Positions 22,201 to 62,200 of a DNA stretch of 64,000 bases are shown here, piece after piece. Position 1 is the first letter of the stretch; the number at the start of each line of letters is the position of its first letter. This DNA is from Chrysomallon squamiferum (Eukaryota > Animalia > Mollusca), in assembly GCA_012295275.1 (NCBI GenBank), contig CM022674.1, positions 806,001 through 870,000 of the forward strand, written 5' to 3'. The notes beneath the pieces are model-generated. The model did no database searches. It saw only the letters and a program-made list of their open reading frames with translations, and had not been told where the DNA came from. Position numbers and translations under genes: made by a program.

Positions 22201-22757
22201 GTAATAATTTTGTTAGAGCTGTTTTTCTTAAATGCAGTGATGAATTTTAAGTTTAATAAATTTAATTTATGTTGACATTGCAGGCTGTTCTTCCACACAG
22301 CGAACTGTTAATCTGGACTGATGCATCAATCCGTTTCAAACCAGTCAACCTCCAACCTTTGTTTGACAACATCAAATCTTCTGGAATCTTGCTAGGAATA
22401 GGGGGATTCTCTATTGCAGATCACACGTCTAAAACTATGTTCGACTACTTCGGCGACGACGCCTGCGAATATTCTGCGTATCACGAGTTTGAAGCTACGA
22501 TGATAATGTTGTACAACGAGCCGTTTATCAAAGACGTTGTCGTGAAGACGTGGTGGGCGTGTGCTATAGATCCCAAATGTATGTGCACCTATTATGACAA
22601 CAGAGAAATTCACTGTAACATAGGTATTAGAAAATACAGCAAATGTCACAGGTTTGATCAAGCGGCGATAACTCTGATACTTGTTAAACTGTTCAGAGAA
22701 CACGTAGAAAGTTTCTCTGTTAGAGTTGGAGAATATCATAGTGTAAAAAGAGAATAA
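16281..22757 (+). CDS. DUF1647-family type II membrane protein (putative GT-A glycosyltransferase-like), copy C, about 409 aa
   Basis: Exons E1 16281-16324 (MAVIGDCSRFVATSQ), E2 17161-17243 (KKFLFVLIFLCSAITYIVFTT, TM), E3 18037-18114, E5 19143-19220, E6 20327-20395, E7 20797-21095, E8 21746-21850, E9 22284-22757. All GT-AG; total 1230 nt, open. E4 survives only as a remnant at 18396-~18416 with no donor. Confidence 0.88.
19608..20030 (+). repeat. (ATT)n/(GTT)n compound microsatellite with an internal higher-order duplication (intron 5, copy C)
   Basis: The block 'ctcgttgttgttgcagttcttcttattattattaccattattaccatcatcaacattttc' occurs twice (about 19725 and 19877). Confidence 0.9.
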
Positions 22758-23442
22758 AAACTCGAAATAAAATGTTTGGTTTTTTATATATGTATATATG
22801 TATGTATGTATGTATGTTTCTTAGGATTTTGAGTATTCTCTGTCTTATATGTACGTCTGAATAGACTCTGCACTTAGACAATATTCGGGAACGCACTGGC
22901 GCAGGAGGACAAAATTCAATCACGAGAAATGCTGGTGTTGTTTTTGTAGAGTTTTCTTTGGGTTTTTTTGTTGGTTTTTTCTTTTTTGGGCGACTTTTAT
23001 TATTTATTTATTTATTTATCATTGTTATTATTATTACTTCATTTTTTCATACTATTATTTTTTTTTTATTATTATTATTATTATCATTTCTTTTCTCTTT
23101 TTTTTTTCATTTATTTCAAATCACTTCAGTATAAAATAAAACAAAAAATTCATATTTGATTATTTTCCCAAGATCCTGCTCATCCTAGTGATTCTGTTTT
23201 TAACAGACACAATCTTCCCTGAGTCGACTACAAGCTCTCAGTAATTCTTCATCCATCATATCTTAAACAACATATAAAAATAAAAAAAAAAAAAATTATT
23301 TAAAACTCGCCACCCTACACGTAACTTGAAAAGAAACACGTAGATAATTTATACTCTGTCGCTGCTATCCGACAAAAAAAAACTAAAAAAAAATAAATAA
23401 ATAAATAAAAAAATTATTTCAATGACAGAAAATAAAACTATA

Positions 23443-23606
23443 CAGGGGCGAATCCAGAAAGTTTTAAAGAGGGTGGTTCACCAGTGTTGTAAATGCTATA
23501 CTGTTTATTCAAAATGGATTATACAGAAATACAATGAAAGAAACATGATGGCAGAGAGGTGGGTACATGTAGGAGTTCTTTCTCCCACCCTCTGGACCCG
23601 CCCTTC
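23443..23606. mobile_element. Small MITE-like element
   Basis: Imperfect terminal inverted repeats CAGGGGCGAATCCAG ... CTGGACCCGCCCTT, a common invertebrate MITE terminus pattern. Confidence 0.45.
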
Positions 23607-58181: not shown

Positions 58182-59236
58182 CTGGTCTAGCTAGAGTTAT
58201 ATGTGTGACAATAACAACTAGTCTGTCTCTTCAAACTGGTCCCGTTCTTCACCGCAAACTGTTTGAATCGATATAGATCAAATAATAATTCTATTAGATT
58301 AAACAAAATTGACATCAGATAAACCATTGAACCAACTTTTGATAAAATATTCTTTTCTTTATTATTATTATTATTATTATTATTATTATTATTACTTCAT
58401 TTTTGATACTATACTTATTGATGTATGTTGTGAGTACCTATGTGGTGAATGTGAACAGAGATTGTAAATATGTTAAAATAATATTTGTGTAAATCTTGTC
58501 TCTCTGGTGAAGGGTTATCTGCTTCCCACGAAGCAAGCCGTTCGTCATTTCTGAGTGCATCTAGTTTTGGCTGGAAATCTGGCACTGAAAAGTATGTAGT
58601 TTAGAAATTTTAACCCTGTCTGTTTCTCTCTGATTCTCTCTCTCTGTCTGTCTCTCAGACTCTCTCTGTATCTCTCTGTTTTTCTCTGAGTCTGTCTCTT
58701 TACCTCTATCTCTGTCTGTTTCTCTTTGATTCTCTATCCATTTCTAAATATCTGTCTCTCTCTCTCTATCTCCCTGTCTGTCTGTCTCTCTGTATCTCTG
58801 TCTTTCTGTCTGTCTCTCTGTGGTTTTTTCTCTTCCTTTCTTACTTACTGTACAACCTAACCTTCTTCCTTGTATCCTTCTTTCTATCTATGTACACCGT
58901 AGACACCCAAACTCGCTCTGTATCTTTTGTATTTCAAGCATCCACGTCCCATACATACATACATACATAATAGATAATACATACATACATACATACATAT
59001 ATACATACATACATAAATACACACATACATACATATATACATACATTAAGACATACAAACATATATACATACCTACATACCCACCAACCTATATACATGC
59101 ATACATACTTACATACATACATACATACATAATAGATAATACATACATACATACATAATACATATTAATAAAAACATTTTGATTTCCATGTTTTTAATCT
59201 TTAAAATTAGGCTCATCCTTCAAATTTGTTTTATGT

Positions 59237-62200
59237 TTAAAATCGGTCTTGTTTTAAGAAATGATATTTACCCATAGTAAGATCGAAACTTTCTACGTGT
59301 TCTCTGAACAGTTTAACAAGTATCAGAGTTATCGCCGCTTGATCAAACCTGTGACATTTGCTGTATTTTCTAATACCTGTGTTACAGTAAAGTTCTCTGT
59401 TGTCATAATAGGTGCACATACATTTGGGATCTATAGCACACGCCCACCACGTCTTCACGACAACGTCTTTGATAAACGGCTCGTTGTACATCATTACCAT
59501 CGTTGCCATGAACTCGTGATAAGCAGAATATTCGCAGGCGTCGTCGCCGAAGTAGTCAAGCATAGTTTTAGACGTGTGATCTGCGATAGAATGAAACCCC
59601 ATTCCGAGCAAGATTCCAGAAGATTTGACGTTGTCAAACAAAGGTTGGAGGTCGACTGGTTTGAAACGGATTGATGCATCAGTCCAGATTAACAGTTCAC
59701 TGTGTGGAAGAACAGCCTGCAATGTCAACATAAATTAAATTAGTTAAACTTAAAATTCATATGTGCATTTAAGAAAATCTGCTCTAAAATTTTTTATTTA
59801 CTTTGGTTTTCTTTTTGTCGATGTCTCATCCTACACAACAACTACTTCTACTGCTATTGCTACTGTTACCACTACTGTTATCAGAACAACCACAATTACA
59901 TCATTACTGCTATTATTACAAGCATTACTAGAACTACAACTGATATTTCTTTTATTACTGCTACTACTACTACAATTACAGTCGTCATAATTAGTATTAC
60001 TAATAGAACTGCTAGTAATGACATTAATAATAATAGCAATAATAATAATGATAAAATAATAATAATAACAACAACAGTACTACTACTTCTACTACTACTA
60101 CTACTACTAATAATAATAATTGTAGTGATAAAAGGTAGTAGTAGTGGTAGTAGAAGTAGTATCACTGTTAATGCACTGACTAATTAACAGTAATATTACT
60201 GTTGTTACCTGAATTATTATTACTTTCCAGGTGTATCCTTTAAGAAATCTAAATCTCTTCGGCAAAAGATCAAAGGGAAATGACCTGAATTCACACCTGC
60301 ATTTTTCTTTAATCTGAAATTAACATTTGGTAAATTGAAATCTGTTAGCGAGGGCAGTGTTAGATATATTCATCATCAAATTGTTTTCTAAACAAAACGA
60401 TGCACATAAATGTATTCTGATTTTAATATGCACACAGACACACATACTTTCATATCCGGAGATTTAGTTAATTTAAACTGCTCTAAATGAAATTGTGTTT
60501 ATACAGATCAGTGACTACTTATTGAGCCTACTCCATAGGTTTTGACTTACACGATTTTAAATGAAATTCTTTCGAACCTGATAATGTGATGATGGGAGCA
60601 GATAGTTTATTCATTTATTTATTTATTTATTTATTTATTTTTTTTTGTATACGCACACACGCACACATACAAGAACACCAGCATTATCAAGGGATCTGGA
60701 CTTGCATGTGTATAGGATCTTTTTATAAACGGGAACCTTCTTTCTATGCAACACCTGTGTCCTTTATTCATTGTCTCATTTATTTATTCATTCATTTATT
60801 TATTTATTTATTTTTATACTTATTCATTTACTTTTTATTTAATTATTTATTTATTTGTTTATTTATAGATATATTATTTTTTACGTTATTTATTTATTTA
60901 TTTTTTCATTCATTCATTCACTCATTTCTTCCTTCATTTATTAATATACGTCTGCCTTTTGTCTTATATTTATTTATATATTCCTTCATTCATCATCGCT
61001 ACTCTCTCTCTCTATCTCTTTCTCTATCTCTATATCTCTATCTCTCTCTCTCTCTCTCTCTCTCTCTCTCTCTCTCTCTCTCTCTGTCTCTGTTGTTAGT
61101 TAAATGTCTCTTCACCTTCTTCTTCTGCTCTGGTTTTAATCCCAAGTCGTAGAAATAAAAAGTAAAATTTTTCAGCTTAGGAAACACAATTTCACGTAGA
61201 TTCTTGATCAGTGCCAGAGATTCACTGAAGTGATTGGAAGAAGCAGCTGTCACGAAAGTCACTTTACTAACATTCTTGTAAGGTCCGAAAGCGACTGAAA
61301 GTCTCTCAGAAACGTCCTTGACCCTGGTAAGAGGTGTAAACACACTGAGGAAATTTTCGTCACTAGAAGGTGGAGGGAAAGATGAATTGCAGGTCGTGTC
61401 CACACATCTCACATCTGTTTGTATAAGCAGTAATATGAATGAAAAACTTTGAACAAAAATACGTTGAAAGAATATTGATTAGTTTCCTGTTATTTCTTTG
61501 TTATTTTTTGCTTTTCTTAATAACATTATTAATAACATGGATTCGTTTAATTCTGTAACGATACTATAGTAATAATATGGACAAGTTTAGTTATATAATG
61601 ATAGGATATTAATAACATGGAGAAGCTAAGTGCATGCAATATGACATAAGTTTATTGTCCGTTTAGTGACAGTTCATCTGCTCTTTCCATTTGGTATATA
61701 TTATTAATTATAATCTCTCTCTCTCTCTCTCTCTCTCTCTCTCTCTCTCTCTCTCTCTCTCTCTCTCTCTCTCTCTCTCTCTCTCTCTCTCTCTCTCTCT
61801 CTCTCTCTCTCTCTCTCTCTGTTTAAGAATAAATAACTTACTGGCTATAACACCTTTCCAGCAAGAAGTTACTTCTTTAAGCTTTTTCCACACTTTGTGT
61901 AATTTGACATCTTAAACATAAAATACGATACGAAGACACAAATATAAACATACTTTGTGTAATTTGACGTCTTGAATATAAATACGATAGGATATACAGA
62001 GATATCACTAACTGGTCAAATTAAAACTTACACTGAAATTTCTCAAACTAAAAATGTACTTATACTGGACAGAGACAACCCATGGAATTATTTTTATCCT
62101 CTTATCCCAAAAGCTCGGTGTGTATATGGAGGTACGTGCATGCATTCATACATTGCATTATATAAAACACATATATGCATATACACAAACACACAGACAA

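What the first reader, a model, noticed from the sequence alone, without database searches (positions are those of the whole stretch)
22284..59716. Hypervariable patches next to predicted catalytic motifs in an otherwise near-identical terminal exon
Seen, in order A/C/D/E/F/G. WTD[T/A/S/T/S/A]S. LL-AIGRH/GIGGF/GRGFH/AIGGH/AIGRQ/GMGFH. HE-FETGLVM/FEATMIM/FAATMIL/LTAGLVM/FETGFVM/FMATMVM. RE-LHCKTQ/IHCNIG/LLCKTR/LYCNTS/LYCNTS/LYCNTG. The last ~15 residues are also highly variable, while the stretches between patches are almost invariant even at DNA level. Inference: in GT-A folds these positions (post-DxD loop, G-loop, loop before DQ, C-terminal lid) line the donor and acceptor sites, so this looks like diversifying selection on specificity.
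Basis: partly seen in the sequence, partly recalled or inferred. Interest (0 to 1): 0.75.

Follow-up and report, generated by a model that had tools for sequence, protein, structure and literature searches.

The report
Snail glycosyltransferase cluster with shuffled pockets
A likely snail genome carries six near-identical copies of an uncharacterised gene, predicted to encode a sugar-transferring enzyme, that differ mainly in short patches predicted to line the substrate pocket, likely because DNA exchange keeps the copies alike while selection preserves and reshuffles different sugar specificities.

Summary
31 of 38 patch codons vary in amino acid, against 9 of 121 elsewhere in the terminal exon. 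The genes are a tandem cluster of DUF1647 proteins (nearest named: Gigantopelta aegis, 55-58%). An abalone homologue folds confidently as GT-A, with D-x-S in place of DxD. By topology the patches fall on the DxD position, the end of strand 5, the G-loop, the loop before D-Q, and the tail. The simple 'dN/dS>1' reading is only partly supported. Standard site models give omega about 5 (p about 1e-5), but this disappears once local rate variation is allowed, because synonymous changes are about five times denser around the patches too. Copies exchange DNA, a pseudogene included, and public runs hold further patch combinations. Abalone homologues keep these positions steady. Best reading: gene conversion homogenises the scaffold while selection keeps old, different pocket motifs and short exchanges recombine them, as in opsin, MHC and R-gene clusters. 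The most variable codon likely sits at the position that sets ABO donor-sugar choice (register weak). This is a new member of a known evolutionary pattern, in an enzyme family without known activity.

The parts
1954..2433 (-). Copy A terminal exon (upstream exons 4945-4647 and 3183-3079)
   Evidence: AG/GT borders, open frame
7764..8030 (+). Fragment B: 3' half of a terminal exon beside a 200-N gap, 1 mismatch to copy G over 329 nt; recent duplicate or assembly duplicate
11580..12008 (-). Pseudogene H: decayed 5' part, 3' block nearly identical to the intact copies
22284..22757 (+). Copy C terminal exon (upstream exons 20797-21095, 21746-21850); two codons shorter
34147..34626 (+). Copy D terminal exon (upstream exons 32785-33083, 33718-33822)
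39812..40292 (-). Copy E terminal exon with 1-nt insertion at 40057 (upstream exons 41924-41626, 40884-40780); pseudogene or assembly error
51046..51525 (-). Copy F terminal exon (upstream exons 53338-53040, 52416-52312; probable stem exons 54761-54684, 53741-53673)
   Evidence: a contig of RNA run X1 joins it to the end of the 105-nt exon and reads through the stop
59237..59716 (-). Copy G terminal exon (upstream exons 61414-61116, 60313-60209)
51484..51486 (-). Copy F codon 14: middle residue of D-x-S (T/A/S), the DxD-equivalent
51400..51414 (-). Copy F patch 1 (codons 38-42): C-terminal half of strand 192-200 of the homologue model; predicted acceptor side
51295..51321 (-). Copy F patch 2 (codons 69-77): predicted G-loop (codons 70-72) and following core strand
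51184..51201 (-). Copy F patch 3 (codons 109-114): loop round a conserved Cys, before C-H-R-F-D-Q
51049..51099 (-). Copy F tail patch (codons 143-159), ending three residues after the family-conserved Arg
52318..52344 (-). Possible further patch in the 105-nt exon: 5 of 9 residues vary round the invariant Lys at the start of helix 151-162 (likely the donor-proximal alpha-C helix); not statistically clustered

Best explanation
This is a tandem cluster of DUF1647 genes, predicted to encode GT-A-fold glycosyltransferases, in which gene conversion likely keeps overwriting the scaffold while selection likely protects a few short segments predicted to line the donor and acceptor sites. Shown: the copies are mosaics; both amino-acid and synonymous differences peak around the patches; patch motifs occur in further combinations in public runs; close homologues in abalone do not vary at these positions. 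Inferred: the patches form one pocket, copies with different G-loop triplets (ETG, EAT, AAT, TAG, MAT in the window; MAG, TAT, MGG in runs) use different sugar donors or acceptors, and short exchanges between copies, pseudogenes included, create new specificities that diversify the animal's glycans.
For: Recombination: neighbouring informative sites are more compatible than shuffled ones (p<=0.002 in 6 of 6 settings); trees differ by segment; A and F tails are identical (0 of 51 nt) while other pairs differ by 3-19. Pseudogene H differs from the copies at 0-2 of 84 nt in codons 115-142 but 20-25 of 93 in codons 38-68. Peaks: at codons with one amino acid in all six copies, 16 synonymous changes fall in 26.9 sites of the patch zones against 15 in 128.4 elsewhere (p=1.4e-5). 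A block-wise rate model without omega>1 fits better (lnL -1244) than M2a (-1263). Not mere tolerance: 43 of 48 family-hypervariable sites outside the patches are invariant here. In six groups of close homologues patch positions vary at 25 of 228 against 57 of 723 outside (p=0.18). Patch pN 0.276 exceeds a fully neutral exon at intron divergence even with best-window picking (0 of 400 runs). Fold: pLDDT 94.7; VIA Z 13.8 glycogenin, 13.0 BoGT6a, 12.7 GTB. Triplets MAG, TAT and MGG each occur in runs of two studies.
Against: No enzyme activity is known for the family in what I could read. No coordinates, so a single pocket was not measured. The G-loop register against ABO rests on a motif pattern and a profile alignment of 0.24% probability. 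The family lacks DxD and C-His, and these copies lack the family's C-terminal Y-F helix. Six sequences cannot separate site-wise rate from omega well. The synonymous zones were drawn after I had seen regional pS, so that test is not blind. Intron divergence counts alignable parts only; at 0.18 the pN excess is gone (26-59% of runs). The two upstream exons have omega 0.94, which also fits some relaxation after duplication. One abalone group also leans to the patches (9 of 38 against 9 of 121). Run haplotypes may be further paralogues, not alleles.
Confidence: 0.6

Rival explanations
1. Recurrent positive selection by point mutation (site-wise dN/dS above 1) at pocket residues of recently duplicated genes. 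Not exclusive of the best explanation.
For: M8 vs M8a 2dL=19.8 (p=9e-6), 9% of sites at omega 5.0; codons 41, 70 and 114 have posterior above 0.95. The signal survives separate trees per segment (26.8), removal of the tail (19.1), and multi-nucleotide rates with three partitions (10.9, p=0.004). Patch pN is 2.2 times intron divergence.
Against: 2dL falls to 1.7 and 3.7 with multi-nucleotide rates on one tree, to 0.4 and 0.05 when patches get their own branch lengths, and to at most 1.8 with rate classes. pN/pS in patches is 0.276/0.246.
Confidence: 0.2
2. Neutral mosaic: redundant copies under relaxed constraint, with random conversion tracts or local mutation clusters leaving old blocks that happen to lie near the active site.
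For: Omega near 1 in patches and in the upstream exons. One frameshifted copy, one pseudogene, a truncated tail. Mean family entropy is higher in patches (3.1 against 2.5 bits). Multi-nucleotide terms improve the fit.
Against: Outside the patches omega is 0.18 (p=1e-6 against 1) and tolerant surface sites stay fixed. The stretch between patches 1 and 2 is synonymous-rich yet nearly fixed in amino acids. Family-invariant residues inside or beside patches (Asp, Ser, Cys, H-R-x-D-Q) are kept. Homologues hold these sites steady.
Confidence: 0.15
3. Assembly artefact: the copies are haplotypes or mis-joined reads.
For: Fragment B is a near-exact copy of G beside an N gap; E has a one-base insertion.
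Against: The six copies have different introns (12% substitution plus indels). Independent runs hold several patch variants at once, and an RNA contig matches F at 490 of 494 nt.
Confidence: 0.03

Closest known systems
DUF1647 / Pfam PF07801 (nearest named: Gigantopelta aegis XP_041365744.1; Haliotis LOC124273154, LOC124274501)
   Same: 55-58% identity over 288-290 residues to the G. aegis protein; same invariant Lys, D-x-S, cysteines and H-R-x-D-Q. One paper lists DUF1647 among genes in C. elegans glycosylation gene clusters without biochemical data (PMC7614267, one passage).
   Different: Here a near-identical tandem cluster with pocket-centred variation and a shortened C-terminus; abalone homologue groups do not show this concentration.
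ABO / GT6 histo-blood-group transferases
   Same: GT-A fold (Z 12.7-13.0). In ABO, codons 266 and 268 set GalNAc versus Gal use and a triplet code exists, with A- and B-type genes as separate copies in some species (PMC5377540, passages); M266 is in the G-loop (PMC7185993, passages). The most variable triplet here likely occupies that loop.
   Different: No detectable sequence homology (no PDB hit; profile probability 0.1-0.24%); donors and acceptors unknown; at least eight triplets rather than two or three.
GT8-like GT-A enzymes (glycogenin, Gat1, LgtC, WbbM)
   Same: Top structural matches (Z 12.5-13.8; Foldseek E down to 1.4e-7); D-Q at the xED position.
   Different: 9-14% identity; D-x-S rather than DxD; extra Cys-rich loop before D-Q.
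Divergence peaks under gene conversion (red/green opsins) and conversion-driven diversity (MHC, plant R genes, S loci)
   Same: Homogenised scaffold, local peaks of divergence at functional sites, pseudogenes as possible donors (PMC3924837, passages).
   Different: Here an enzyme family rather than a receptor; function of the peaks and age of the duplicates untested.

Membership tests
DUF1647 (PF07801) | Pfam score above the gathering threshold (25.7 bits) | tested here: inconclusive
   One exon of copy F alone scores 22.1 bits, E=1.4e-4, covering part of the model; the spliced protein was not scanned. The three nearest full homologues pass (27.1-50.9 bits).
DUF1647 (PF07801) | Full-length homology and family-invariant residues | tested here: met
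   55-58% identity to P0009; invariant Lys, Asp, Cys and H-R-x-D-Q kept in all six copies, E read past its insertion
GT-A fold glycosyltransferases | GT-A core fold | tested here: met
   Shown on the model of homologue P0001, not on a window protein: pLDDT 94.7, the listed matches are GT-A enzymes, best Z 13.8, rmsd 3.3, 197 aligned
GT-A fold glycosyltransferases | DxD metal-binding motif | tested here: not met
   D-[AST]-S in 129 of 131 homologues and in all copies; some GT-A families also lack DxD
GT-A fold glycosyltransferases | G-loop and xED-type motif | tested here: met
   [AG]-G-F consensus at the start of strand 224-234 and D-Q-S at the start of helix 281-301; Gly is Thr in copies C, D, G and in 27 of 131 homologues
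GT-A fold glycosyltransferases | C-terminal His | tested here: not met
   A conserved Arg (100 of 125) lies near that place; Gln in copy G
GT-A fold glycosyltransferases | Sugar-transfer activity | not testable with these tools
   needs enzyme assay
Golgi type II membrane enzymes | N-terminal signal anchor | tested here: inconclusive
   Homologues show a hydrophobic N-terminal stretch; stem exons found in the window, first exon not resolved
GT6 / ABO | Sequence homology to PF03414 | tested here: not met
   No Pfam or PDB sequence hit; profile-profile probability 0.1%
GT6 / ABO | Donor choice set by the G-loop triplet (works-like) | tested here: inconclusive
   Relaxed alignment puts codons 70-72 on the GT6 triplet, but at 0.24% probability; register uncertain by one residue
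Sites under positive selection | dN/dS above 1, robust to recombination, multi-hit changes and rate variation | tested here: inconclusive
   Robust to partitioning; not to rate variation; 1 of 3 multi-hit fits significant
Divergence peak under gene conversion | Exchange between copies | tested here: met
Divergence peak under gene conversion | Linked synonymous divergence raised at the peak | tested here: met
   (zones not blind)
Divergence peak under gene conversion | Duplicates older than their scaffold divergence (both copies present in a sister species) | not testable with these tools
   no genome held for this window or its relatives

The most novel reading that the evidence does not exclude
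An ABO-like glycan-typing locus run like an MHC cluster: copies of an undescribed glycosyltransferase carry at least eight G-loop codes for different donor sugars, micro-conversion (with pseudogene donors) keeps making new codes, and individuals differ in the surface or mucus glycans that microbes, possibly symbionts, must recognise.
Probability: 0.2. Interest if true: 0.8.

Novelty: new member of a known kind. Interest (0 to 1): 0.52.

Why it matters
DUF1647 is a widespread invertebrate family (1210 clusters at E<=0.001) with no activity found in the searched papers. This cluster gives a natural mutagenesis panel: enzymes 84-93% identical in the terminal exon that differ mostly at predicted donor and acceptor positions, so a few assays would give both the family's activity and its specificity code. 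If the variation is maintained by microbes, it would be a polymorphic glycan system in a mollusc comparable to ABO.

Tried and rejected
No genome is held for the window, so copy number and synteny were not tested. Sequence search of the PDB with the family profile: 0 hits at E<=10. Profile-profile alignment to phage GT6 proteins: only the N-terminal half aligned by default (0.1%), forced-global runs failed, and a relaxed local run gave the register at 0.24%; the GT6 alignment was shallow (Neff 1.5). No selection signal or clustering in the two upstream exons. Contig depths suggest more copies than the window holds, but the tool says depth is no copy number, so I did not use them. One UniRef name for a distant member says GT92; GT92 was not among the listed fold matches, which does not exclude it. 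Earlier scan notes: nothing by place or sequence; the word search gave only bacterial arrays of other GT families, not used. Literature: 'DUF1647' 3 papers, one passage read; PF07801/IPR012444/'DUF 1647' 0; two five-term searches for selected or converted mollusc glycosyltransferases 0. Subscription papers are not covered and no supplements were read; supplements of PMC7614267 and PMC7185993 may bear on family assignment. No complex prediction or second fold was run.
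Full report
What is there. The window is AT-rich, microsatellite-rich animal DNA (30% GC) with a tandem cluster of one gene in both orientations. Six copies (A, C, D, E, F, G) each have a 299-nt exon, a 105-nt exon and a terminal exon of 157-159 codons, with AG/GT borders. Two probable stem exons lie upstream; the first exon was not resolved. There is also a decayed copy H and a fragment B that matches G at 328 of 329 nt beside an N gap. E has one extra base at 40057. 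A contig from an RNA run matches F with four differences, runs on into the end of the 105-nt exon and through the stop codon, so the splice and the short C-terminus are real for F.

Observation. 40 of 159 terminal-exon codons vary in amino acid and they cluster (p=5e-5; 3e-4 without the tail; upstream exons p=0.35). The stretches between patches are nearly fixed in amino acids (pN 0.013) but not in DNA (pS 0.099; alignable intron 0.123), except codons 115-142.

Family and fold. The proteins are DUF1647 relatives. The nearest named one is from the gastropod Gigantopelta aegis (55-58%), then abalone proteins, so the host is probably a gastropod (inference). An AlphaFold2 model of abalone P0001 with 131 sequences has pLDDT 94.7. 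It matches GT-A enzymes: glycogenin Z 13.8 (rmsd 3.3, 197 aligned), Gat1 13.6, BoGT6a 13.0, blood-group GTB 12.7. There is no sequence-level PDB hit. The family has D-x-S for DxD, D-Q-S at the xED place and a conserved Arg near the C-His place. The window copies stop three residues after that Arg and lack the family's last Y-F helix.

Where the patches lie. Mapped on the model's secondary structure, codon 14 is the x of D-x-S. Patch 1 is the C-terminal half of strand 192-200. Patch 2 starts at the [AG]-G-F motif at the N-terminal end of strand 224-234 and continues into the core. Patch 3 flanks a conserved Cys before C-H-R-F-D-Q, and the tail precedes the conserved Arg. In GT-A enzymes the G-loop binds the donor and the hypervariable regions set the acceptor (PMC7185993, passages); that strands 192-200 and 224-234 pair on the active-site face is my inference from recalled GT-A topology. 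A relaxed profile alignment to phage GT6 proteins puts codons 70-72 on the triplet that is 266-268 in ABO. Its probability is only 0.24% and the register may be off by one. In ABO that triplet sets the donor sugar (PMC5377540, passages). Codon 70 is the top-ranked site in the selection scan (posterior 0.996). No coordinates were returned, so 3D clustering was not measured.

Is dN/dS above 1? I wrote the codon models myself (F3x4, naive empirical Bayes; not codeml or HyPhy); E's insertion codon was treated as missing, B and H were left out. Standard tests are significant: M8 vs M8a 2dL 19.8, omega 5.0 on 9% of sites; M2a vs M1a 19.5 on one tree, 26.8 with three segment trees, 19.1 without the tail. 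They are not robust. With double and triple changes allowed, 2dL is 1.7, 10.9 and 3.7 in the same three settings. With separate branch lengths for patches it is 0.4 (0.05 with multi-hit), and patch-only omega is 0.81-1.59, never significantly above 1 in 6 fits. With a second rate class acting on both dS and dN, p is 0.41 or more in 4 of 4 fits, one of which did not fully converge. Such sensitivity is a known issue (PMC10336034, search listing only). In favour of real acceleration, patch pN (0.276) was never reached by a wholly neutral exon at intron divergence even when the best windows were picked (0 of 400), rarely at 0.15 (0-27 of 400), and often at 0.18.

What fits better. Synonymous changes are uneven along the gene (chi2 29.6, 7 df, p=1e-4). 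At codons with a single amino acid they are five times denser in zones round the patches (16 in 26.9 sites against 15 in 128.4, p=1.4e-5). I drew the zones after seeing regional pS. The copies are mosaics: compatibility test p<=0.002, A and F tails identical, segment trees discordant. The pseudogene shares the 115-142 block almost exactly while being 22-27% different in codons 38-68. That is the pattern described for duplicated genes where selection blocks conversion at functional sites, and for MHC and R-gene clusters (PMC3924837, passages). Two controls argue against simple tolerance. 43 of 48 family-hypervariable sites outside the patches are fixed here. In six groups of close homologues the patch positions vary at 25 of 228 against 57 of 723 outside (p=0.18; a seventh pair, left out as probable paralogues, gave 9 of 38 and 24 of 121), though one group leaned to the patches.

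Variation beyond the window. Eight of the nine runs that hold the stretch were laid (both tables were cut by 4-5 rows, and I assigned rows to contigs by depth). The expressed F-like contig differs from F at four bases, all amino-acid changing, three in patch 2, giving G's M-A on F's background. Triplets MAG (X1, X2, X5), TAT (X2-X5, X7) and MGG (X5, X7) each appear in runs of two studies, and patch 1 appears as G-M-G-G-H. TAT is also in pseudogene H (read by eye). Within-patch combinations are short enough to be read-supported; links between patches are not, and alleles cannot be told from further paralogues.

Verdict. The feature is real and not ordinary drift. Most likely (0.6) it is a converting cluster of GT-A enzymes whose pocket motifs are kept different by selection and reshuffled; plain recurrent sweeps 0.2; neutral mosaic 0.15; artefact 0.03. 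The evolutionary pattern is known. Its occurrence in DUF1647 was not found in the searches run. Activity, substrates and the selective agent are untested; that two holder runs are labelled metatranscriptomic is only a lead toward a microbial partner.

Noticed in passing
window 51049-51060 (and the other copies' ends): All copies stop 1-3 residues after the family-conserved Arg position and lack the C-terminal Y-F helix found in most homologues; the RNA contig confirms the stop for F.
   Followed up: partly
window 52318-52344: Five of nine residues vary round the invariant Lys of the likely alpha-C helix; the family's Pro after it is Ala or Val in five of six copies.
   Followed up: partly
window 53338-53040 and equivalents: The 299-nt exon has low synonymous divergence (0.039, a third of introns) and omega near 1: probably recently homogenised, with scattered amino-acid changes.
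   Followed up: partly
window 7564-8092: 200-N gap followed by a near-exact inverted copy of G's 3' end; may be an assembly duplicate.
   Followed up: partly
window 40057: One-base insertion in copy E; pseudogene or sequencing error, not checked in reads.
   Followed up: no
window 35582-36217: Tandem repeat with copies offset by multiples of 96 nt, about 98% identical, downstream of copy D.
   Followed up: no
runs X4 and X6, contigs laid at window 51104-51165: A more distant paralogue-like piece matching only the C-H-R-F-D-Q region, so other DUF1647 genes likely exist elsewhere in the genome.
   Followed up: no
P0278 and P0279 (Haliotis rubra): Two close abalone copies differ at patch 1 and at the residue before the G-loop triplet, a hint of the same pattern in another gastropod.
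   Followed up: partly
window 12326-17853, 26900-28900, 45350-49130, 56000-58500: Non-coding blocks shared between the duplicated units (72-93% identity), so duplications covered several kb of upstream DNA.
   Followed up: no
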